Assembly: GCA_028716945.1 (NCBI GenBank)
Contig: JAQUOT010000001.1
Coordinates: forward strand, 187,927 to 251,926
Source: Candidatus Nanoarchaeia archaeon
Lineage (GTDB): Archaea; Nanobdellota; Nanobdellia; SCGC-AAA011-G17; JAFCDX01
Reading direction: 5' to 3'
DNA: 64,000 nucleotides
Within the stretch, counting starts at the first letter, position 1. Each line of letters starts with the position of its first letter. This document shows positions 1-63,488 of the stretch, piece by piece. Position numbers and translations under genes: made by a program. Below the pieces are notes generated by a model, which saw only the letters and a list, made by a program, of their open reading frames with translations, was not told the origin of the DNA and did no database searches.

Positions 1-1146
1 GTGCACAAAAATTCCACTATACGGATTAAAATTTATAATTTGACTATAATAATAATTTCCAGAATTATCACCTGCCTCATCAACCCAAGTTTCTTTTTTT
101 AATAATCTTTTTAATTCTAAAGAAGTAATTGTAGGTTTGATATTAAATAATGATTTTCCAAGAGTTAATTTATTTTGAGGAGTTTCAATTAAATAAGAAT
201 CATCACAAATTTTGTTTCCTGTTTGAACATTATCAAGAGTAGAAATACATTCTACTTTTTTAGTTAAGGTTATACTATTTGTTCCTATATTTAATACTAA
301 TTTTGAATCTATATCTTGTATTGTTGTGGGTACATTTGGTGTAAAAGCTATATTTGAATATTCATCTCCAACACTTAAAATTTTAATATTTATTTTTTTA
401 GTATTCCAATTTACTTTTGTTATCATAAATTTATCCATTTTATTTTCATGACAAGATTCGAAACAAACTCCTACAGGTGTTGAAATAGCTACTCCTTTAC
501 CAGAAGATTCTAATAATGCAGTACAAGAAGTTAGACTTGAAATTTTACAAGCACCATTTTCACAACCATTTGGACAAGTATAATAATCCCAAGCAACATT
601 TCCTCCAGAACAATAAGCTTCTGCTAAACGATTTGGATATAAAATTTGATCAGAACAACCATCATAATAAACTGCTCCCAAAGTATCTTTAACATTTCCA
701 GCAGTAAAATAATCTTTTTCATTATCAGAATCTACACAAGTATTAGCTGCAGATGTTGATAATGTAACACATTTTCCTCCAACACATTTTTTATTATATT
801 GAGAACAATCTACTTCAGCAAAATTAGAATTAATACTTTTACAATACCCTTCTATTAAAATATTGGTGTTATCTCCATATTTACAATAATCCCATCCAGT
901 AGTAGACGTAAATAAATTAGTTCCCAAACCATTTTTTGCATCGATTTTACCTTGAACATCTAAATTCCAATAACTAGAACTAGAACCATCTGATTTTATA
1001 CATGAATAAGTAGAAGCTTCTAAAGTTCTTGTATTATCTGAATTTGTTCCAAATAAATTAGTTAAAAAATTATTTATTGAAAAAGCAAATACAATTGGAG
1101 TTACTAAGATTAATAATAAAGAAAGTACAATCAAGCTCTTTTTCAT
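1..1146 (-). CDS. Secreted cysteine-rich surface protein, partial (C-terminus lies beyond the left window edge)
   Basis: Hand translation of the minus strand from ATG at 1146 stays open to position 1 (382 codons). It has the signal peptide MKKSLIVLSLLLILVTPIVFAF. The first 61 aa are identical to the gene at 1187..3832. It contains the modules GWDYC..IEGYC..C..KCVGGKC and CVDSD..AEAYC..CPNGCENGAC. It is absent from the ORF track because it runs off the edge. Confidence 0.8.
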   Translation of the reverse strand, partial: MKKSLIVLSLLLILVTPIVFAFSINNFLTNLFGTNSDNTRTLEASTYSCIKSDGSSSSYWNLDVQGKIDAKNGLGTNLFTSTTGWDYCKYGDNTNILIEGYCKSINSNFAEVDCSQYNKKCVGGKCVTLSTSAANTCVDSDNEKDYFTAGNVKDTLGAVYYDGCSDQILYPNRLAEAYCSGGNVAWDYYTCPNGCENGACKISSLTSCTALLESSGKGVAISTPVGVCFESCHENKMDKFMITKVNWNTKKINIKILSVGDEYSNIAFTPNVPTTIQDIDSKLVLNIGTNSITLTKKVECISTLDNVQTGNKICDDSYLIETPQNKLTLGKSLFNIKPTITSLELKRLLKKETWVDEAGDNSGNYYYSQIINFNPYSGIFVH

Positions 1147-1182
1147 ATAAATAATATTAAAATTTATATATTTAAATCTTTT
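965..1182. repeat. 218-bp exact repeat, copy 1 (promoter, signal peptide and first 61 codons of a surface-protein gene)
   Basis: Base-by-base comparison shows 965..1182 is identical to 3651..3868 at an offset of 2686. Similarity decays within about 25 nt beyond the coding-side boundary. Confidence 0.9.
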
Positions 1183-1186
1183 GTTT

Positions 1187-3832
1187 TTATTTTTTAGAAG
1201 AAAGTTCAAGTCTAGCTTTTTGTTGGTTTCTTATTTTTTTGAAAATATAATCTAATTGGTTTTTCTTCCAACCTTTTTTAACCAAAGCATCTTTAATATC
1301 AATTTCAGATTTTTTATCTGCCAATTGTTTTTTAACATATGCTTCTAATTTTATTTCTTGTTCTTTATTTGAAATTGGAGATCCTCTTTTTATTATATAA
1401 TATTGCCAATATATGAAAACTCCAACAATTACAACTACTACAAATAATATTATTAAAATATACCATGGGAAACTTGATCCACAATCGGCCTTACACCATC
1501 CCTCTTCTAATGGATGACATACTCCATCTCCACATTGATATTCTGGTTCTTCAGTTATTTCTGTTTTAGTTGTAATAGAACATTGTTCTGAAGTAGAACT
1601 TAACTGATTTCCTGTGGTTGTATCATAAGTATAAACTGTTCTTGTTCCTATTCCATCTCCTTCGGGATCTATACAATCTCCTAATCTCTGTTCGTAAGAA
1701 CTTTGACTAGCCATAACAGAAGTTATTATACTACAAATTCCACCAATACAACATTTAACTGAATCTGATGAAGCTACAGAAATAAATTGTCCGGTTGTTC
1801 CAGTACATTGTTGATTTTCTAAACATATTTGTCCATCTAAATTATTACAAGTATAATCAGAATAATCTATTGTAAGTTCTTTACATTGCCCAGTACTAAG
1901 ATCTCTTGATTGACAAGACACACATTCTTCATCTTCTAAAGTACAAGTAGTAGTACAACTTGGATCACATGCATCTCCTTTCCCATCATTATCACAATCT
2001 GCTTGATCCTCATTATAAATGTATATGCAATTATCTTCATCATCACAAATTCCATCTTCATCATAATCATCTTCACATTCTAAGCAAGCAGCATTAGATA
2101 CACAAGCACTATCTGCACAATCTGTTAATCCATTACAATTATTATCAATATTATCAGTACAACTAGTTTCTGATTGAGCACAAGAAGAAGGGGTACATCC
2201 TCCATTATTACATCCATACCCATATGTTTGACAATCAACAACTAAAGTCCATACATTATTTTTACATTCTTGTACATTAGTTCCTAAACATCTTAACTGA
2301 TTTTCTTGACAAACAGCAGCTATACAACTTGTAGCAGATGTACAACAATTTAAACAATCACTTACTCCAGTTATAAGACTAGAACATGTTTGTCCAGATG
2401 TACAACAAACACCATTTTTTTGAGCACAAGTTTGTGAATTAGAAGAAGTAGTACCACATTGATTAGCAGTGCCTGCACCACCACAAGTTTCAGCAGCACT
2501 AACATTACAAGTTAATGTCCCTGTTTTAGATAGATTAGTTCCACAATTTGTTGAAACAATTTTATTTCCACAAAACGAACTTAGGTCTGGAGTAAATATA
2601 ATGGGAGTACATCCACTTCCTCCTACGCCTGCAGCACCACTAACAGTACAACTTTTAATTAATGAAAATTGATTAGTACATGCAGCATCTGTACAATATT
2701 GTTGCCCACCTATACCGGGATTAAAAACTTGACAAATAGACCAAGTTGAACAAGTTGATGTTGTACAAACTCCTTTAGATCCACTTCCTCCTGAAGAAGA
2801 AATATTTGAACTATTAATTTTTTTACAAAGGGTACCAATATCTCCTATATCTCCAACATTACATTTTGAATTTGGTACATATGTTGTACAATTATAAGTA
2901 GTATTTACCCACCTTGTTCCTCCACAATAATAAAAATTTCCAGAGGTACATAAATATTTTCCCCTCATACCAGCAGTACAATTTATTCCATTAAAGTTAA
3001 TTTGAGAAGTATCTCCACAAGTTTTAGCAGTAAATACTACTTTATTTGACAAAGCTCCATTCCATACCCAAACAACATATTTTTGTCCAGGTTCTAAAAC
3101 ATAACTTGGAGATAAGGGTTGTACATTTCCAGCTACATCTCCAGAACCGGTTAATTTTATATTAAACTCATTAAGTGTAAAGGTTTCGGTTGCTTTTGAT
3201 GTATCTTTTACTTCTATAGCATAATAGGTTGATGTAGAAGGATCTGCATTACTTATTTCTCCTTTAAAAACATCAATACTATAAGTTCCACTACTAGGAA
3301 CACTTCCACCACTAAAAGTTATATTTACTTTTGATTTAGTTCCTTCACAAGAAGTTGTAATAGTTGAAGATAAAGTTACGGGGGTTATTATACTTCCTGC
3401 TCCACCCGAAGTTGTGGGTGTAACACATTTTCCACTGCTACATATTTTACCATAATCAGAACAATCTATTTTTCCAATATAAAATGAATTTACAGTATTT
3501 CCACAATACCATTCTCCTAAAAGAGTACCTGTAGTATCTTGTCCAATATCTTTAAGACAATAATCAGAACCTACTACTTGGGTTGTAGAGCTAGAACCAA
3601 TCGCAGAAGTAGTTAATGTAATTTTACTAATTTTACCTTGGATATTATAATTCCAATAACTAGAACTAGAACCATCTGATTTTATACATGAATAAGTAGA
3701 AGCTTCTAAAGTTCTTGTATTATCTGAATTTGTTCCAAATAAATTAGTTAAAAAATTATTTATTGAAAAAGCAAATACAATTGGAGTTACTAAGATTAAT
3801 AATAAAGAAAGTACAATCAAGCTCTTTTTCAT
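1187..3832 (-). CDS. Giant cysteine-rich cell-surface protein with a thrombospondin type-3-like Ca-binding repeat, C-terminal TM anchor and cytoplasmic tail
   Basis: Taken from the 896-aa track ORF. I moved the start to MKKSLIV (3832) because that gives a signal peptide identical to the paralog at 1146. The protein has very many Cys and Thr/Ser-rich stretches. It contains DYDEDGICDDEDNCIYIYNEDQADCDNDGKGDACD, which fits the TSP type-3 consensus. It also has the TM segment WYILIILFVVVVIVGVFIYW followed by a basic tail. Confidence 0.85.
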   Translation of the reverse strand: MKKSLIVLSLLLILVTPIVFAFSINNFLTNLFGTNSDNTRTLEASTYSCIKSDGSSSSYWNYNIQGKISKITLTTSAIGSSSTTQVVGSDYCLKDIGQDTTGTLLGEWYCGNTVNSFYIGKIDCSDYGKICSSGKCVTPTTSGGAGSIITPVTLSSTITTSCEGTKSKVNITFSGGSVPSSGTYSIDVFKGEISNADPSTSTYYAIEVKDTSKATETFTLNEFNIKLTGSGDVAGNVQPLSPSYVLEPGQKYVVWVWNGALSNKVVFTAKTCGDTSQINFNGINCTAGMRGKYLCTSGNFYYCGGTRWVNTTYNCTTYVPNSKCNVGDIGDIGTLCKKINSSNISSSGGSGSKGVCTTSTCSTWSICQVFNPGIGGQQYCTDAACTNQFSLIKSCTVSGAAGVGGSGCTPIIFTPDLSSFCGNKIVSTNCGTNLSKTGTLTCNVSAAETCGGAGTANQCGTTSSNSQTCAQKNGVCCTSGQTCSSLITGVSDCLNCCTSATSCIAAVCQENQLRCLGTNVQECKNNVWTLVVDCQTYGYGCNNGGCTPSSCAQSETSCTDNIDNNCNGLTDCADSACVSNAACLECEDDYDEDGICDDEDNCIYIYNEDQADCDNDGKGDACDPSCTTTCTLEDEECVSCQSRDLSTGQCKELTIDYSDYTCNNLDGQICLENQQCTGTTGQFISVASSDSVKCCIGGICSIITSVMASQSSYEQRLGDCIDPEGDGIGTRTVYTYDTTTGNQLSSTSEQCSITTKTEITEEPEYQCGDGVCHPLEEGWCKADCGSSFPWYILIILFVVVVIVGVFIYWQYYIIKRGSPISNKEQEIKLEAYVKKQLADKKSEIDIKDALVKKGWKKNQLDYIFKKIRNQQKARLELSSKK

Positions 3833-3868
3833 ATAAATAATATTAAAATTTATATATTTAAATCTTTT
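3651..3868. repeat. 218-bp exact repeat, copy 2
   Basis: Identical to 965..1182. It covers 36 nt upstream of the ATG at 3832, including the AT-rich TATA-like tttaaatatataaa on the minus strand, plus the first 61 codons. Confidence 0.9.
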
Positions 3869-3873
3869 TATTT

Positions 3874-5895
3874 TCAAAATAAAGGTTTTATTCTGGTTTC
3901 TTTCAAAGCTTCCTTAATTTGTTCCTCTTTCCACCCTTTTATTCTTAAAGAACTTATAATTTGTTCTTTTGGAATACCTTGATTTATTTTAACTTGAATA
4001 TAATTTGATAATCTTGCTAAACTTAATTCTTTTTCAATATCGGATTGTGGCCAACCTGCTCTTTCTAATTCCTCTTTTATATTCTTCAAAGGAACTTTTG
4101 CATTTAAAGATTTTTGAATATATTCTTTCATTTTTTCAACATTAACAGGTCTTACTTTTATTGTAGGTTCTTGTTTTATTTCTTTTACAAAAGTTTGAGG
4201 AGCAACTTCTTTTGGTTGAACTATCGGACTTGATTCTTCAACAACTGCTCTTTTTCTTTGTACATAAGTATAAATTATAATTACTAAAATCATAATGAAA
4301 ACTATTCCAGAAATTAAACTTACTCCAATAAGCACCTTATTTGATTTATTTTCAAGATTAGTGTTAGTACCTAAATTAACATTTGTAGTTGTTCCTGCTA
4401 AAACAGTAGAAGTACAAGAAATAGAACAGCAAATTCCTGATCCCGAATGTAATAAAGTAGAACTACTACAAGTTTGATTACTTCCACAAACATAACCATT
4501 TTCTAAAGAGCAAGAACAATCTGAATCTCCTCCAACGCAAGATATAGAACAACCATCATTTATTCCACAAGTAGAACCAGTACAAGATTCATTAATTGCA
4601 GGTCTTCCTGTTAAAGTTCCACAATTATTTTCATCAATACAAGTTCTTGTTCTTACATTATTAACACAAGAAGTCCAATTTGTACAATTCCAAGTTTCAG
4701 AACAGGAAGAAGTAGAATTTGTAATATTAATTAAGAATAAATTACCAACAACATACAATCCTAAACTATCATTAGCACTAAATCTTATTAAATTGGTTCC
4801 AGTCCAGTTTGCTTTTGGAACAAATTCTGCTTCATCATTAGAATTTATAAAAATAGAAATAGAATTATTTCCGGTGAAATTATAAATTAATTTTTGTCCA
4901 TCTGGTTCTGAGAAATAATCCTCTAATTCTAAACTATCATTGGTATTTTTTCTCCAAGACATATTATCAAAATTATCTTTTAATATAGGAGGAGAATTTA
5001 ACATATCAATACTGCTTGAATTTACATAAGTTCCTTTAATCGTATCGTTAGCACTAATAGTACATGTCCATTCATCTATATGACTTTCAGTTATCTGTAC
5101 AGAAATATTACAAGATTTTCCATTTACCCAAGAATCTCCAGAACAAGATACATCTCCAGATTTAAATGGACTAGCAAAATTAGTTTCATTCCACAAAATG
5201 TATTTAACATTAACAGTACTACTATCCGTATCTTTAACAATAGAAGAACAATTTACATAATCTTTTACTCTAAACTTATTTGAACCAGTTAAATTAGTAA
5301 AAGAAACATCTGTTATTGTAGGAGGATTAGTTGTTACAGGAGCAGAAACTGTAAAACTTTTTGTATCTGAAATTAAAACATCTGCACTGTAATTTAAAAT
5401 GAATTCTAAAGTATAAGTTCCAGCACTTAAGGCAGATAATCCAGAAAAAGCAGATATAGGAGTACTTACAGTAACTTCAGAAAGCGTTGAAAATGCTCTT
5501 CCAGGTTGTTCAGGATTTTCCCAAGCCCAATCAGGACTATCATGACTTCCATCTTTAAAAATTTGACCATCAATACAATTTTTTGGATTTGCATTTGAGT
5601 TAGTTAAAAAATTTTCTAAAGTTAGAGTACTACGTTGTATAACTTGGTCTCCAGAATCTTTTATACCTATATAAACATTTGAAGACCCATTACAAGGAAT
5701 AACATCGCCTGCTAAAAATTTTATTGAAATATCTCCAGTTAATGATTGCCCTGCAGTTATAGTATCTAAATCAATATTATCTTTAACAACGTTTCCAGTA
5801 ATAGATGGCTTCATTAACATAAAAACTAAAAATGAGAATACAAATATTGCAAATATAAAAACGCTCAATTCTCTATCTTTTTTAATATGTACCAC
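3874..5895 (-). CDS. Large surface protein with N-terminal signal anchor, Cys-rich stalk, C-terminal TM and cytoplasmic tail carrying GW helical repeats
   Basis: 673-aa ORF. The N-terminal hydrophobic segment is followed by ITGNVV. A Cys-rich region reads CSETWNCTNWTSCVNNVRTRTCIDENNCG. The TM segment is VLIGVSLISGIVFIMILVIIIYTYV. The tail contains ELERAGWPQSDIEKEL and SSLRIKGWKEEQIKEAL. Confidence 0.8.
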   Translation of the reverse strand: MVHIKKDRELSVFIFAIFVFSFLVFMLMKPSITGNVVKDNIDLDTITAGQSLTGDISIKFLAGDVIPCNGSSNVYIGIKDSGDQVIQRSTLTLENFLTNSNANPKNCIDGQIFKDGSHDSPDWAWENPEQPGRAFSTLSEVTVSTPISAFSGLSALSAGTYTLEFILNYSADVLISDTKSFTVSAPVTTNPPTITDVSFTNLTGSNKFRVKDYVNCSSIVKDTDSSTVNVKYILWNETNFASPFKSGDVSCSGDSWVNGKSCNISVQITESHIDEWTCTISANDTIKGTYVNSSSIDMLNSPPILKDNFDNMSWRKNTNDSLELEDYFSEPDGQKLIYNFTGNNSISIFINSNDEAEFVPKANWTGTNLIRFSANDSLGLYVVGNLFLINITNSTSSCSETWNCTNWTSCVNNVRTRTCIDENNCGTLTGRPAINESCTGSTCGINDGCSISCVGGDSDCSCSLENGYVCGSNQTCSSSTLLHSGSGICCSISCTSTVLAGTTTNVNLGTNTNLENKSNKVLIGVSLISGIVFIMILVIIIYTYVQRKRAVVEESSPIVQPKEVAPQTFVKEIKQEPTIKVRPVNVEKMKEYIQKSLNAKVPLKNIKEELERAGWPQSDIEKELSLARLSNYIQVKINQGIPKEQIISSLRIKGWKEEQIKEALKETRIKPLF

Positions 5896-17188: not shown

Positions 17189-17338
17189 GGAGCGGTAGCT
17201 CAGAAAGGTTTTGAAGTTTAAGACCTTGAGCAACCTGGGAGAGCATAGAAATATCTCAAACCACGCTGAAGCCGTGGATGAAAGGTTATACGTCTAGTAT
17301 ACCTTGCCAAATCGGGGGTTCAAATCCCCCTCGCTCCA
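17189..17338 (+). tRNA. tRNA-Phe (anticodon GAA) with three introns (17204..17233, 17245..17259, 17281..17311)
   Basis: The hand fold gives acceptor GGAGCGG/TCGCTCC plus A73. The D-arm is GCTC-AGCCTGGGA-GAGC after removal of a 30-nt insert. The anticodon arm is CCACG-CTGAAGC-CGTGG, the variable loop ATGTC, and the T-arm GGGGG-TTCAAAT-CCCCC. The spliced product is 74 nt. Each intron is bounded by a BHB-like motif with 3-nt bulges. An AT-rich TATA-like tttaaatatat lies about 30 nt upstream. Confidence 0.85.
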
Positions 17339-18026
17339 TTTTCTTTATATTTTTAATATTAGAACTTCTTATTAATTTAATAAAAGAGGAGGCATTATTA
17401 TAACCGCTTATTTGTATTTTATATTTTTCATACCTTTTATTAGTTCTTTTATCTATATAATTTTCATGTCCTACATAATGATCTATCTTTTGAATTTTAA
17501 TCCAATCAGATATTTTGTATATTAAATTTTTATCTTTTAGACCAAGATTAATAACTGGATAAAATTTATATTTTCCGTGATTCTTTTTTAAACACAAAGA
17601 ACCATCTGTATCAAAAATTCCTTTAATGAATGCTTTAGCATAAATTTTATTATCCCATATCCATCGAGGAACCTTATTTCTATAATTTATTTTTTTATAA
17701 CCTATAATATTAAGAAAAGATAATATCCCTTTAGATCTCTTTGTTAAGATTAAAGTATTAATCTTTTTCTTTTGATATAAATTCATCTTTACATTGAATA
17801 AAAACAAAACTTTATCTTTAATATAGTTTGAATAATTCCTCTCATCTTTGAGATTACTAAAAATAGAAAAAATATAATCATTGCTTCCTAAATTATAATA
17901 AACATGGCCATCTCCAGACAAAATACCTAAAAATTCTGACAAGTCTCTAGAAGAGGATTTAGGAAAAATAATTTTATTCTTAATATCTTGGTGACTTAGT
18001 TGAATATCTGATAAATCAAATTTCAT
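17286..18026 (-). CDS. LAGLIDADG family endonuclease (two-motif, free-standing), paralog A
   Basis: Track ORF 17286..18068. I chose the start MKFDLSD at 18026, matching paralog B. The two motifs are LGILSGDGHV and IKGIFDTDGSL. The last 53 nt are antisense to the tRNA-Phe 3' part. Confidence 0.8.
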   Translation of the reverse strand: MKFDLSDIQLSHQDIKNKIIFPKSSSRDLSEFLGILSGDGHVYYNLGSNDYIFSIFSNLKDERNYSNYIKDKVLFLFNVKMNLYQKKKINTLILTKRSKGILSFLNIIGYKKINYRNKVPRWIWDNKIYAKAFIKGIFDTDGSLCLKKNHGKYKFYPVINLGLKDKNLIYKISDWIKIQKIDHYVGHENYIDKRTNKRYEKYKIQISGYNNASSFIKLIRSSNIKNIKKMERGGFEPPIWQGILDV

Positions 18027-18048
18027 GATTAATAAAAAGCGAATTTGA

Positions 18049-18105
18049 TTTATAAATCTGGCGCGCACCCATCTGCAAGTTGCAATTTGTTAGAATATAT
18101 ATTTT
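18049..18105. repeat. Conserved 57-nt block upstream of LAGLIDADG paralog A (TATA-like box plus GC-rich and palindromic core)
   Basis: The sequence tttataaatctggcgcgcacccatctgcaagttgcaatttgttagaatatatatttt is nearly identical to 63404..63459, apart from a 2-nt indel and a local shift. It contains the palindrome tgcaaGttgca. Confidence 0.85.
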
Positions 18106-18163
18106 GTGGAATATAGATAGACGCCTTAGAAACCTTTAAATATAATCTAAGATTAATTAAGAT

Positions 18164-34546: not shown

Positions 34547-35164
34547 ATGATTTTTAAGGAAATAAAGGCATTAAAAGTCAAAAACATCGAATATTTAGCT
34601 CAAGGAAAGAGATCTATAATATATACTGGAATTTTTAGAAATAAAAAAGTTGCAATTAAAACTGAAAAACCAGGAATAAGCGCTAAAGATAGAATTTTAA
34701 ATGAAGCTAAATTTCTTAAAATAATTAACAAATATAAAATTGGACCAAGATTAATCACTTCTAGAAAAAAATTTATGATCTATGAGTTTGTAAAAGGAAG
34801 ATTTATTCTTGATTCTTTTCCTGAAAAGAGTAAAAAAGAGATTTTAAAACTAATTAAAAACGTTTTAGAGCAATGTTTTATTTTAGATAAATTAAAAATT
34901 AATAAACTTGAAATGCATCATCCCATAAAACACATAATCATCGATAAAAAACCTGTTTTAATAGACTTTGAAAGAAGTTATTTAACAAATAATCCAAAAA
35001 ATGTAACTCAATTCTGCCAGTTTATTATGTCTCATCCTTTGATTGACATTTTAAATAATAAAAAAATAAAAATTGATAGAAATAATTTCATAAATATTGT
35101 AAAAGAATATAAAAGAGATAAAACTAAAAATAATTTAAAAAAAATAAAAAAAGAAATAAATTAA
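34547..35164 (+). CDS. Small atypical protein kinase (Bud32/RIO-like)
   Basis: 205 aa. It has GKRSIIYTG..KKVAIK (Gly-loop plus Lys), EAKFLK and PVLIDFERS (DFG-like). The size fits a minimal kinase fold. Confidence 0.45.
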   Translation: MIFKEIKALKVKNIEYLAQGKRSIIYTGIFRNKKVAIKTEKPGISAKDRILNEAKFLKIINKYKIGPRLITSRKKFMIYEFVKGRFILDSFPEKSKKEILKLIKNVLEQCFILDKLKINKLEMHHPIKHIIIDKKPVLIDFERSYLTNNPKNVTQFCQFIMSHPLIDILNNKKIKIDRNNFINIVKEYKRDKTKNNLKKIKKEIN

Positions 35165-35895
35165 ATTAATCTACATGGCCTATTGCTTCTGTAAAACTGT
35201 CCTTGTGCATTTACACAAACATATGCATTACCGCCATTTGGTTTAGCCAAACTAGTAACTTTTAAACTATTGGTTTCACAAGTATTATCTGCATTACAAG
35301 AATTTGCTCTTACTTCTTCCAAAGTTTCTATATTTGTTGCACCTAACAAACCTTTAATTCCTGAAACGGCTGCATAAACTTCTTCATAAGTTATTAAAGC
35401 GTCCTTATTTGTATCTACAGAATTACAAAAGTCTGAACTAAATCCATACCCAATACAATCCTCTATTGAAATAGATTTTGTATAAGTATTAGAAACTTGT
35501 CCGAGAAGATTATTTGCTGCAGATAAATCAGGAATTTCTAATATTCCGTTTCCATCTGAATCATACAAAGTAATTCCAGCTATCTTACTTTTAATATAGT
35601 CATAAGCATATTGTGCTTCGGCAACAGTAATGTGATTATCATTATTTATATCTACCGAATTACAAAAGTTTAGACTTCTTTTTTCTGCACAATTATTAAC
35701 TAAAATAAATTGTACATTGGTATTATAAACCTGTCCAAGAAGACTAGTTGCTACACTTAAATCTGGAATTTCTAATATTCCGTTTCCATCTGAATCAAAT
35801 GGAACTGCTACTGCTTTTCCAGTATAACTAGCACCTATAATAAAAAGTGCTACCAATACTAAAACAATCGATAAGATTATAGTATTTCTTTCCAA
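35161..35895 (-). CDS. Secreted protein with two dockerin/EF-hand-like Ca-binding repeat pairs
   Basis: 244 aa. DSDGNGILEIPDLS occurs twice, each time followed by VD(I/T)N(N/K)D..IT..E. The internal duplication has a 234-nt period. Confidence 0.6.
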   Translation of the reverse strand: MERNTIILSIVLVLVALFIIGASYTGKAVAVPFDSDGNGILEIPDLSVATSLLGQVYNTNVQFILVNNCAEKRSLNFCNSVDINNDNHITVAEAQYAYDYIKSKIAGITLYDSDGNGILEIPDLSAANNLLGQVSNTYTKSISIEDCIGYGFSSDFCNSVDTNKDALITYEEVYAAVSGIKGLLGATNIETLEEVRANSCNADNTCETNSLKVTSLAKPNGGNAYVCVNAQGQFYRSNRPCRLI

Positions 35896-37309: not shown

Positions 37310-37849
37310 CTAACTCTTCTTTATATTACTACAACAATTATAACAACTAGTATAACTACAACTATTACAAGTTTTAGTACAAGGAGTAGAACAACTAAAA
37401 ATAGCACAATTACTTGCTCCTCCGGAAGTAGGAGCACTTATTAATTTATTTACACAACTAAATGTAATGGTTTTACCAATCCCATCTAAATTTTTTTTAA
37501 CAGCAGGAGAACAAGTTTCAGTATATTTTGCTCCTTTTGCATTTATGTAAGTATAAGGTAAAACACTCCAAGTAATAGCTGCTCCTTTTCTTCCAGTAAC
37601 AGAAGTTAAACAACTAGTTTTACCAGTACAAGTTGCTAATTGTATATTTGAAGCATCAAGACCTTTACAAGTTTTAGAATTTAATGTATTTGAAAATTTA
37701 CAAGTTACTTTTTCACTAATAACATTTGTTGCTTCAAGCGTCCTTAAATTATCTTGAGAATTAAAACTAGATAATATATCAAATAAAAATAATCCTAATA
37801 CTGCAAAAAATAATACAACTAATAAAGTCTTTACCTCTTTTACCATCAA
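37310..37849 (-). CDS. Secreted cysteine-rich protein, hypothetical
   Basis: 179 aa. It has an N-terminal TM/signal segment and about 20 Cys, including the C-terminal CSTPCTKTCNSCSYTSCYNCC. Confidence 0.6.
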   Translation of the reverse strand: MMVKEVKTLLVVLFFAVLGLFLFDILSSFNSQDNLRTLEATNVISEKVTCKFSNTLNSKTCKGLDASNIQLATCTGKTSCLTSVTGRKGAAITWSVLPYTYINAKGAKYTETCSPAVKKNLDGIGKTITFSCVNKLISAPTSGGASNCAIFSCSTPCTKTCNSCSYTSCYNCCSNIKKS

Positions 37850-37885
37850 CTTATTAGAATATTTATATATTTAAATCTTTTTATA

Positions 37886-63403: not shown

Positions 63404-63459
63404 TTTATAAATCTGGCGCGCACATCTTGCAAGTTGCAATTTGTTAGAATATATATTTT
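63404..63459. repeat. Conserved 56-nt block upstream of LAGLIDADG paralog B
   Basis: tttataaatctggcgcgcacatcttgcaagttgcaatttgttagaatatatatttt is the counterpart of 18049..18105. It lies between tRNA-Asn and the endonuclease gene. Confidence 0.85.
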
Positions 63460-63488
63460 AGAGAATATATTTTAAATAAAAAGAAAAG

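What the first reader, a model, noticed from the sequence alone, without database searches (positions are those of the whole stretch)
965..3868. Two divergent giant surface-protein genes share a 218-bp perfectly identical promoter, signal-peptide and N-terminal module
Positions 965..1182 and 3651..3868 are identical base for base. Each copy covers 36 nt upstream of the ATG, including an AT-rich TATA-like box, plus the first 61 codons (MKKSLIVLSLLLILVTPIVFAFSINNFLTNLFGTNSDNTRTLEASTYSCIKSDGSSSSYWN). Downstream of this block the two proteins diverge within about 25 nt into different cysteine-rich bodies. A sharp boundary between 100 percent identity and strong divergence in tandem genes suggests recent gene conversion or recombination. 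One possibility is a cassette-like arrangement in which different adhesin bodies are expressed from the same expression and secretion module. That would be a candidate surface-variation mechanism in an episymbiotic archaeon.
Basis: seen in the sequence. Interest (0 to 1): 0.6.

Follow-up and report, generated by a model that had tools for sequence, protein, structure and literature searches.

The report
Gene conversion keeps two leaders identical
Two neighbouring surface-protein genes of a tiny DPANN archaeon carry an identical 220-base promoter and secretion-signal block because recombination keeps copying it from one gene to the other; this is a clear but ordinary case of gene conversion, not a switching system.

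Summary
Window 963-1182 and 3649-3868 are identical over 220 nt, which covers 36 nt upstream of the ATG plus 184 nt of coding sequence. Both genes lie on the minus strand in tandem, B (881 aa, membrane-anchored) followed by A (751 aa, secreted, cut by the window start). A sister species (about 92% nt identity) has the same C-B-A-signal peptidase locus. There the two copies are also identical to each other, over 167 nt. The two species differ at 8 sites in the block, and each difference is shared by both paralogs. Sequence immediately outside the block groups by ortholog. This pattern is concerted evolution by gene conversion. In this genome the tract extends 53 nt further, and gene A carries B-type sequence there. 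Independent k=31 assemblies of the raw reads break exactly 30 nt inside each border of the repeat, so it is not an assembly artefact. The block contains a BRE/TATA core promoter at the usual distance from the ATG, a Sec signal peptide and a conserved linker. Only two copies exist per genome. There are no silent cassettes, no inverted copies and no recombinase gene nearby. The cassette or surface-variation idea is therefore unsupported. I rate it a new member of a known kind, of modest interest.

The parts
963..1182 (-). Copy 1 of the 220-nt identical block, at the 5' end of gene A (positions -36 to +184 relative to the ATG at 1146)
   Evidence: Exact identity to 3649-3868. The Logan contig L018 ends 30 nt into this copy, at -7.
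3649..3868 (-). Copy 2 of the 220-nt identical block, at the 5' end of gene B (positions -36 to +184 relative to the ATG at 3832)
   Evidence: The Logan contig L017 coming from gene C ends 30 nt into this copy. L018 starts at +155, which is 30 nt before the first A/B difference.
1147..1182 (-). Core promoter of gene A: A-rich BRE-like AAAAGA (1177-1182), TATA box TTTAAATA (1169-1176), then 22 nt to the ATG, implying a leaderless or near-leaderless mRNA
   Evidence: Across 73 ORFs of the window, TATA-like motifs peak at -29/-30 from the ATG, which is where the block's TATA box sits. The 19-nt core AAAGATTTAAATATATAAA recurs exactly at 37862-37880 at the same distance from another start codon.
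3833..3868 (-). Core promoter of gene B, identical to that of gene A (TATA 3855-3862, BRE-like 3863-3868). It fills 36 of the 41 nt between the stop codon of gene C and the ATG of gene B.
1078..1146 (-). Sec-type signal peptide of A (codons 1-23, MKKSLIVLSLLLILVTPIVFAFS). The same sequence lies at 3764-3832 for B.
   Evidence: MKK n-region, about 17 hydrophobic residues, and small residues at -3/-1 (V-F-A or A-F-S), read from the sequence. A hydropathy scan finds one N-terminal hydrophobic segment in A and B. An archaeal signal peptidase I gene lies directly downstream of A (TIGR02228, 81 bits).
963..1015 (-). Extension of the tract specific to this genome (+132 to +184, codons 45-61). Here gene A carries B-type sequence. 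The same segment is 3649-3701 in B.
   Evidence: In the sister genome the identical block stops at +131. There A2 has its own sequence with a 12-nt insertion, while B2 resembles A1=B1.
1..1146 (-). Gene A (first 382 of 751 codons in the window). A secreted protein with no C-terminal membrane anchor: leader, two Cys-rich 'C-x-DSDG' domains, an S-layer-protein-like domain (aa 313-613) and a Ca-binding dockerin/EF-hand-like C-terminal domain.
   Evidence: Full gene in L001 6530-8785. 54% identity to the S-layer-like paralog P0152 (PF05124). Hydropathy scan.
1187..3832 (-). Gene B (881 aa). A type I membrane protein: leader, Cys-rich N-domain, Ig-like domain, Cys-rich repeats, thrombospondin type 3-like Ca-binding repeats, stalk, transmembrane segment at about 782-815, and a Lys-rich cytoplasmic tail.
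   Evidence: (NCBI name 'thrombospondin type 3 repeat-containing protein')
3874..5895 (-). Gene C (673 aa), the upstream membrane-anchored surface protein. It does not carry the block, and its stop codon sets the 5' limit of homology for copy 2.
   Evidence: More distant relatives retain gene C, where it directly abuts the signal peptidase gene.

Best explanation
Genes B and A are tandem paralogous surface-protein genes of a Candidatus Nanoarchaeia (DPANN) archaeon. They were inserted as a pair between gene C and the signal peptidase I gene in the common ancestor of this genome and one sister species. Their shared 5' module consists of a BRE/TATA core promoter, a leaderless-type start, a Sec signal peptide, a conserved linker (SINNFLTNLFGTNSDNTRTLEA) and the first residues of a Cys-rich domain. 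This module is kept identical by recurrent non-reciprocal homologous recombination (gene conversion) between the two copies, while the rest of both genes evolves fast. The 5' edge of the tract is fixed where homology ends, a few nt after the stop codon of the upstream gene. The 3' edge varies between lineages (+131 in the sister species, +184 here), and the latest event here copied B sequence into A. The consequence is that both proteins are transcribed from the same promoter sequence and enter the Sec pathway with the same signal. Shown here: the identity, its reality in the reads, the concerted site pattern in two species, the direction of the last event, the two-copy limit, and the promoter position. 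Inferred: the recombination pathway (RadA-type homologous recombination), that both promoters are active, and that purifying selection on the leader acts together with conversion.
For: (1) The exact 220-nt identity is far beyond chance. (2) The sister genome JBAZJB010000001.1 is a 766,449-nt contig with a 1,674-nt terminal overlap and is 88-92.6% identical in the flanks. It has the syntenic order C-B-A-signal peptidase and its own exact 167-nt block. (3) The site pattern supports conversion. In -120 to -37 only ortholog-grouping sites occur. In -36 to +131 there are 8 sites where A1=B1 differs from A2=B2 (-9, -2, +12, +39, +76, +85, +87, +102) and none that group by ortholog. Beyond +184 ortholog grouping returns. 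(4) Paralog dS is 0 inside the block and 0.65-0.77 just after it. Ortholog dS inside the block is 0.15-0.19, within the range of the neighbouring genes (0.13-0.48). (5) In +132 to +184, A1=B1 closely resembles B2, while A2 differs at more than 12 sites plus a 12-nt indel, which points to B-to-A transfer. (6) Read-level support comes from Logan k=31 contigs. L017 ends at -7 of copy 2. L018, seen in 3 samples, spans exactly +155 of B to -7 of A, and I predicted its partial product before the look-up. (7) Leader dN between species is 0.02, against 0.15-0.18 in the next 80 codons and about 0.2 gene-wide. A distant homologue, P0153, keeps the AFAF...NN-h-L-x-N-h-FG pattern. (8) The promoter position matches the window-wide TATA peak.
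Against: Only two genomes of this clade exist in the searched databases; the next signal-peptidase relative is 67% identical. The 8 shared differences therefore cannot be polarised, and the number of conversion events per lineage is inferred. The Logan contigs probably come from the same read sets as the MAG, so they are an independent assembler but not independent data. They fix the two borders but do not exclude a SNP in the middle of one copy. The short-read graph alone cannot distinguish C-M-B-M-A from C-M-A plus an excised B-M circle. No expression data were examined, so activity of both promoters is unproven.
Confidence: 0.8

Rival explanations
1. The module is part of a programmed surface-variation system: a portable expression and secretion cassette that is recombined onto alternative adhesin bodies, or whose 220-nt direct repeats drive frequent loss or amplification of gene B.
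For: The 220-nt direct repeats flank the whole B body, so homologous recombination could delete or amplify B. The surface genes evolve fast, with dN/dS of 0.5-0.76 against 0.06-0.18 in neighbouring genes. Gene B of the sister genome holds an exact 424-nt internal duplication, so the locus is recombinationally active. The k-mer graph is compatible with both the intact and the excised arrangement.
Against: There are only two copies per genome and both are complete genes with promoters. Searches that recovered B through the leader alone found no further leader-bearing protein. The window contains no promoterless partial copies of the A or B bodies and no inverted copy of the block. No recombinase or integrase was found among the neighbours examined. 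Recombination between identical modules yields no new chimera, only loss or gain of B. The same two-gene order is kept in both species.
Confidence: 0.08
2. Homogenisation occurred by unequal crossing-over or repeated re-duplication of the 5' module, not by non-reciprocal gene conversion.
For: The genes are tandem and in direct orientation, the geometry in which unequal exchange occurs. The literature notes tandem duplication as an alternative for tandem pairs (PMC6053082).
Against: Unequal exchange between the modules changes copy number (C-M-A or C-M-B-M-B-M-A). Both species keep exactly one B and one A with orthologous bodies. The tract ends differ between lineages (+131 versus +184) without any change in gene order.
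Confidence: 0.07
3. The identity is an assembly artefact, caused by a collapsed or duplicated repeat or by popped bubbles.
For: Both genomes are metagenome-assembled. The sister contig starts exactly at the module border and ends at the end of an internal repeat, which shows that repeats did shape that assembly.
Against: The same architecture appears in two species from different projects, each with lineage-specific variants shared by both copies. Independent k=31 assemblies of the reads, in three runs, break exactly 30 nt inside each border. That is what a true two-context repeat spanning -36 to +184 predicts.
Confidence: 0.03
4. Strong purifying selection alone, acting on the promoter, the translation start and the signal peptide, keeps the two copies identical without any exchange.
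For: The leader is clearly constrained: ortholog dN is 0.02, and a distant homologue keeps the motif pattern.
Against: Selection cannot explain 8 substitutions that differ between species yet are shared by both paralogs. These include synonymous and promoter sites. Paralog dS is 0 where ortholog dS is 0.15-0.19.
Confidence: 0.02

Closest known systems
Helicobacter pylori babA/babB/babC adhesin paralogs (5'-region gene conversion; PMC4552749)
   Same: These are surface-protein paralogs with a homologous 5' region and a divergent middle. Intragenomic homologous recombination copies roughly the first 60-240 bp from one paralog to another, producing genes whose 5' end comes from the other copy. 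Here A1 carries B-type sequence in +132 to +184.
   Different: The bab loci are dispersed rather than tandem. They also share a C-terminal homology region. The transferred 5' part of babB carries CT repeats that confer phase variation, and no simple-sequence repeat is visible in the module here. The bab system is bacterial outer-membrane biology and this is an archaeon. Here the promoter is inside the tract.
Long-lasting concerted evolution of prokaryotic paralogs, such as archaeal mtrA, mtmB/C, glnB and histones, and bacterial tuf (PMC6053082, PMC4632066)
   Same: The definition is met: paralogs are more alike within a genome than to their orthologs, a pattern attributed to recurrent gene conversion. 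mtrA is also a tandem pair with domain shuffling outside the converted part.
   Different: The seven archaeal cases in that survey are all cytoplasmic or energy-metabolism genes of methanogens and are converted over most of their length. Here the tract is 167-220 nt, covers only the promoter and leader of otherwise unrelated surface proteins, and occurs in a DPANN archaeon.
Mycoplasma Vsp/Vpma/Vsa variable surface lipoprotein families (PMC2268961)
   Same: These are families of surface-protein genes whose 5' untranslated region and signal-peptide region are highly conserved, while the mature proteins differ.
   Different: Those systems switch by site-specific inversion using a dedicated recombinase, with a single active promoter and silent genes, and they encode lipoprotein signal peptides. 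Here both genes have their own promoter and lie in direct orientation, no recombinase was found, and the signal is Sec type I.
Staphylococcus aureus lpl tandem lipoprotein-like paralog cluster (PMC2568036)
   Same: These are tandem surface-related paralogs in which a highly conserved stretch inside each ORF serves as the site of homologous recombination, and evolutionary units do not coincide with ORF borders.
   Different: The conserved recombination site there is central in the ORF and shuffles 5' and 3' variable regions among many copies and strains. Here the conserved stretch is the extreme 5' end plus the promoter, and there are only two copies.

Membership tests
Concerted evolution by gene conversion between paralogs | Within the tract, paralogs of one genome are more similar to each other than to their orthologs in a related genome | tested here: met
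   There are 8 paralog-grouping sites and 0 ortholog-grouping sites in -36 to +131. The blocks are exact in both genomes, 220 and 167 nt.
Concerted evolution by gene conversion between paralogs | Outside the tract the same genes group by ortholog, so the duplication predates the species split | tested here: met
   Only ortholog-grouping sites occur upstream of -36 and beyond +184. The bodies of A1/A2 and B1/B2 are orthologous.
Concerted evolution by gene conversion between paralogs | An identical run significantly longer than expected from the divergence of the surrounding homologous sequence | tested here: met
   The run is 220, against a maximum of 49 in 100,000 permutations. Paralog dS is 0 inside and 0.65-0.77 outside.
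Concerted evolution by gene conversion between paralogs | Homologous recombination machinery (RadA and others) present and active | not tested
   The window was not screened for radA, and activity cannot be shown from sequence.
Site-specific-inversion surface variation systems (Mycoplasma Vsp/Vpma/Vsa type) | Conserved 5' region and signal peptide shared by the family members | tested here: met
   The feature is shared by A and B only.
Site-specific-inversion surface variation systems (Mycoplasma Vsp/Vpma/Vsa type) | A single active promoter or expression site, with the other copies silent | tested here: not met
   Both copies contain the full BRE/TATA core promoter.
Site-specific-inversion surface variation systems (Mycoplasma Vsp/Vpma/Vsa type) | Inverted recombination sites or inverted gene orientation, and an adjacent site-specific recombinase gene | tested here: not met
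   Both copies are on the same strand and no inverted copy exists. Pfam and precomputed annotations of the neighbouring genes show no recombinase.
Silent-cassette antigenic variation (expression site plus promoterless donor cassettes) | Partial, promoterless copies of the variable bodies elsewhere in the genome | tested here: inconclusive
   None occur in the 64-kb window by tblastn, and none appear among database proteins. The rest of the genome DNA could not be scanned.
bab-type 5' gene conversion among adhesin paralogs | A chimeric 5' end: one paralog carries the other's 5' sequence relative to its ortholog | tested here: met
   A1 carries B-type +132 to +184, whereas A2 has its own sequence.
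bab-type 5' gene conversion among adhesin paralogs | The transferred segment carries a phase-variable simple-sequence repeat | tested here: not met
   Reading the 220-nt block shows no dinucleotide or long homopolymer tract.
Sec (class 1) signal peptide | A positively charged n-region, a hydrophobic h-region, and small residues at -3/-1 of a cleavage site | tested here: met
   MKK, then SLIVLSLLLILVTPIV, then FA|FS|, read from the sequence. The hydropathy scan supports it. No dedicated predictor was available. The cognate archaeal signal peptidase I gene lies next to A.
Archaeal BRE/TATA core promoter | A TATA box preceded by a purine-rich BRE at a fixed distance from the transcription start | tested here: inconclusive
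   TTTAAATA at -30 to -23 coincides with the window-wide TATA peak at -29/-30 from start codons, and the exact 19-nt core recurs upstream of a third gene. The transcription start was not mapped.

The most novel reading that the evidence does not exclude
The promoter-leader block may be a selected, portable expression and secretion unit. Its 220-nt direct repeats would then make gene B a recombinationally excisable or amplifiable surface gene, giving populations of this DPANN archaeon heritable heterogeneity in surface display (cells with and without B, or with extra B copies) without any dedicated recombinase. The conserved mature N-terminal peptide (NNFLTNLFG-type motif, also found in a distant homologue) might in addition be a previously unrecognised sorting or processing signal.
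Probability: 0.1. Interest if true: 0.6.

Novelty: new member of a known kind. Interest (0 to 1): 0.3.

Why it matters
This is a clean, read-verified example of partial gene conversion in a DPANN archaeon. The tract covers exactly the core promoter, start codon and secretion signal of two otherwise fast-diverging surface proteins, and it has been homogenised in each of two sister species. The archaeal cases of concerted evolution in the survey I read (PMC6053082) are all methanogen metabolic or chromatin genes. This case would extend the phenomenon to cell-surface genes of ultra-small archaea, and it shows that homologous recombination is active in a roughly 0.77-Mb genome. It also has practical uses. 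It marks the working promoter and signal-peptide consensus of this lineage. It flags a locus where short-read assemblies will break. It offers a simple population test, the coverage of B and the junction reads, for recombination-driven surface heterogeneity.

Tried and rejected
(1) A word-index protein search with the first 144 aa of B returned nothing, not even B itself.

No third genome was found. The next signal-peptidase relative is 67% identical.

(3) A second shared patch (A 622-664, B 406-450) was considered as a second conversion tract. I rejected this because it is only 78% identical at nt level and the same Cys motif occurs twice in the distant protein P0108. It is a domain motif.

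(4) The 'ENFLTN' similarity between the leader and gene C (family D3) is absent from C2, so I put it down to chance.

(5) The AlphaFold model of the N-terminal domain from a 5-sequence alignment was poor (mean pLDDT 46.8) and was not used. No fold search was run.

(6) Pfam and NCBIfam gave only sub-threshold hits for A, B and C (TSP_3, Big_9, acidic disulfide repeat).

(7) Look-ups of A1 (P0151) and of the S-layer paralog P0152 were not on record, so P0152's DNA and genomic place could not be examined.

(8) The bacterial sigma-70 promoter and terminator scanner was not used because the organism is archaeal.


Full report
**Observation.** Window 963-1182 and 3649-3868 are identical base for base over 220 nt, 2 nt more than reported. 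A 50-nt probe from the block finds only these two copies in the window at up to 3 mismatches, with 0 expected by chance. The repeat finder shows no further or inverted copy. Over the 466 aligned columns of the homologous 5' regions the longest identical run is 220, against a maximum of 49 in 100,000 shuffles. Both genes are on the minus strand. They form a tandem row:
- C: 3874-5895, 673 aa.
- B: 1187-3832, 881 aa.
- A: ATG at 1146, cut by the window start.

The block covers 36 nt upstream of each ATG plus 184 nt of coding sequence (61 codons plus 1 nt).

**Source and full genes.** Protein B is encoded on JAQTPZ010000005.1 (GCA_028712455.1), which supplied the rest of the locus as L001. Gene A is 751 aa there. 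It is followed by an archaeal signal peptidase I gene (TIGR02228, 81 bits against a cut-off of 51.85), then TFS, thioredoxin and PCNA. The window matches that contig with 0 mismatches over 7,675 nt but runs beyond its end. This fits the 535,886-nt contig listed for these proteins. NCBI names the organism Candidatus Nanoarchaeia archaeon. An intron-containing tRNA-Ile, together with TFS, PCNA, aRF1 and RpoL genes, agrees with an archaeon. G+C content is 27.5%.

**What the proteins are.**
- A has one hydrophobic segment, the N-terminal signal, and no membrane anchor.
- B has the signal plus a transmembrane segment at about 782-815 and a Lys-rich tail.
- C has a signal anchor and a transmembrane segment at 518-547.

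B's strongest database similarity lies in residues 583-626, a thrombospondin type 3-like Ca-binding repeat with thousands of hits. Residues 313-613 of A are 54% identical to the N-terminal part of P0152, an 801-aa S-layer-like protein (PF05124) of the same genome. After the block, A and B remain homologous to about residue 140. That region aligns with the 'C-x-DSDGG...YC...C-x-NG-x-C' domain, which occurs in other DPANN proteins recovered here. Beyond it the two architectures differ. 'Surface protein' is therefore supported. 'Giant' and 'adhesin' are not established.

**The key comparison.** A scan of species-representative genomes found one relative, JBAZJB010000001.1 (Ca. Nanoarchaeia archaeon SO_2017_LW4_109). 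It is a 766,449-nt contig whose ends overlap by 1,674 identical nt, so it is probably circular. The JGI copy of the same contig was the only hit of the metagenome scan. This relative has the syntenic order C2, B2 (1051 aa), A2 (716 aa), signal peptidase. Flanking genes are 88-92.6% identical at nt level to this genome.

A four-way alignment of the 5' regions gives this pattern:

| Segment (relative to ATG) | Site pattern |
|---|---|
| -120 to -37 | Variable sites group only by ortholog |
| -36 to +131 | 8 sites where A1=B1 differs from A2=B2 (-9, -2, +12, +39, +76, +85, +87, +102); none group by ortholog |
| Beyond +184 | Ortholog grouping returns |

The sister genome has its own exact block of 36+131 = 167 nt. 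Paralog dS is 0 inside the block and 0.65-0.77 immediately after it. Ortholog dS inside the block is 0.15-0.19, within the range of the neighbouring genes (0.13-0.48). Paralogs that are identical within each genome while differing between genomes, embedded in sequence that groups by ortholog, fit the definition of concerted evolution. Purifying selection alone cannot explain this.

**Tract ends and direction.** The 5' edge is the same in both species. It lies 4-5 nt after the stop codon of the upstream gene, where homology ends. The 3' edge differs, at +131 in the sister genome and +184 here. In +132 to +184, A1=B1 closely resembles B2. A2 has its own sequence, with more than 12 substitutions and a 12-nt insertion. 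The simplest reading is that a B-to-A conversion in this lineage extended the tract by 53 nt. With only two genomes the 8 shared differences cannot be polarised. At least one post-split conversion here is required, and conversion in both lineages is likely but inferred.

**Is it real in the reads?** Logan assemblies (k=31) of run SRR22315509 gave a direct test.
- Contig L017 carries gene C and ends exactly 30 nt into the block, at -7. That is where a de Bruijn unitig must stop on entering a repeat that begins at -36.
- I then predicted that the B body should sit on a unitig starting 30 nt before the first A/B difference (+155), whose partial product would be B residues 53-881.
- The look-up of exactly that protein returned a 2,526-nt contig, L018, seen in three samples. 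It spans +155 of B to -7 of A.

Both borders of the repeat therefore exist as branch points in the reads. Together with the second species, this makes an assembly artefact very unlikely. Two gaps remain: a SNP in the middle of one copy is not excluded, and neither is the alternative resolution of the graph (C-M-A plus a B-M circle).

**Content of the block.** The upstream 36 nt read AAAAGA-TTTAAATA-(22 nt)-ATG. Among 73 ORFs of the window, TATA-like motifs peak at -29/-30 from the ATG, exactly where the block's TATA box lies. The 19-nt core AAAGATTTAAATATATAAA recurs exactly at 37862-37880, at the same distance from another start codon. This fits an archaeal BRE/TATA core promoter that produces leaderless or near-leaderless mRNA (inference, since no transcription start was mapped). 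Codons 1-23 form a Sec-type signal peptide. Codons 24-44 are a linker, and codons 45-61 begin the Cys-rich domain. Between species the leader has dN of 0.02, against 0.15-0.18 in the next 80 codons and about 0.2 over the whole genes. A distant homologue from another metagenome (P0153, 35% identity) keeps the pattern P..FAF...N..L.N.FG. Selection on the leader therefore acts alongside conversion.

**Origin of the pair.** In three more distant relatives (signal peptidase 66-68% identical; L008, L009, L010) a C-like gene directly abuts the signal peptidase gene. The B-A pair is thus an insertion specific to the clade of these two genomes. No closer third genome is in the databases.

**The cassette or surface-variation idea.** Searches that recovered B and B2 through the leader alone found no other leader-bearing protein, apart from the distant P0153. 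The window holds no promoterless partial copies of either body and no inverted copy. None of the neighbours examined is a recombinase. Recombination between two identical modules would not create a new chimera. It would only delete or amplify B. That remains possible and testable from read coverage, but nothing here shows it.

**Comparison with known systems.**
- The closest mechanistic parallel is 5'-region gene conversion between the H. pylori bab adhesin paralogs (PMC4552749).
- The general phenomenon is concerted evolution of prokaryotic paralogs. The archaeal cases in one survey are all methanogen genes (PMC6053082; see also PMC4632066).
- The Mycoplasma Vsp/Vpma families share the 'conserved 5' UTR plus signal peptide, divergent body' layout. 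They work by site-specific inversion with one promoter and a recombinase (PMC2268961), and those features were tested here and not met.
- The S. aureus lpl cluster shows recombination at a conserved intragenic stretch in tandem paralogs (PMC2568036).

**Verdict.** The switching-cassette part is not. This is a new member of a known kind and is of modest interest. Its value lies mainly in being a well-documented DPANN example and a locus where recombination-driven heterogeneity could be tested from existing reads.

Noticed in passing
L001 7969 (= gene A nt 1440, outside the window); L013, L014, L015 position 1: Logan contigs from three sequencing runs all begin at the same point inside gene A, in the stretch encoding VDVDEAETKC. 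This stretch lies in the segment that is 54% identical to the S-layer-like paralog P0152 (PHD81_00930). It suggests a second exact repeat of at least 31 nt shared between A and another locus, possibly another conversion patch.
   Followed up: partly
L003 444-867 and 1251-1674 (gene B2 nt 408-831 and 1215-1638): The sister species' B gene contains an exact 424-nt internal direct repeat spaced 807 nt apart, which duplicates an Ig-like domain (1051 aa against 881 aa here). The sister contig starts exactly at the module's 5' border and ends exactly at the end of the second internal repeat, so repeats shaped that assembly.
   Followed up: partly
L008 6881-9498; L009 5839-8443; L010 5487-8091: In three more distant relatives the C-like gene is followed directly by the signal peptidase I gene. 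The B-A pair is therefore a lineage-specific insertion between two conserved neighbours.
   Followed up: yes
window 35161-35895 (-): This 244-aa ORF has a signal anchor and two tandem repeats of about 78 aa with EF-hand Pfam hits. The repeats are 40-49% identical to the C-terminal 80 residues of gene A (a DSDGNGILEIPD...CN.VD.N.D motif). It may be a Ca-dependent dockerin-like module shared by secreted proteins.
   Followed up: partly
window 37862-37880 (-): An exact third copy of the 19-nt promoter core AAAGATTTAAATATATAAA lies 15 nt upstream of the ATG of an unannotatable ORF of about 178 aa (37310-37849). It is probably this organism's strong consensus promoter.
   Followed up: partly
window 18074-18115 and 63428-63469 (+): A 42-nt direct repeat, 93% identical (TGCAAGTTGCAATTTGTTAGAATATATATTTT...), sits in two distant intergenic regions. 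The first copy is near a weak 150-nt tRNA-like Rfam hit (17189-17338) and an ORF with a weak LAGLIDADG match (17286-18068).
   Followed up: no
window 1187-1630 (-) (B residues about 735-881); P0063: The stalk, transmembrane segment and cytoplasmic tail of B (EYQCGDGVCHP...KKGWKK.QLDY.FKKI) are 46% identical to the C-terminus of an unrelated 1114-aa surface protein from the representative library. This looks like a shared C-terminal anchoring module in large surface proteins of this lineage.
   Followed up: no
L006 1-240: The only distant protein with a similar leader (P0153, 855 aa, ENA contig k141_314220) sits on a contig that begins just 117 nt upstream of its ATG. This could reflect a repeat-induced assembly break at its own promoter-leader region.
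   Followed up: no
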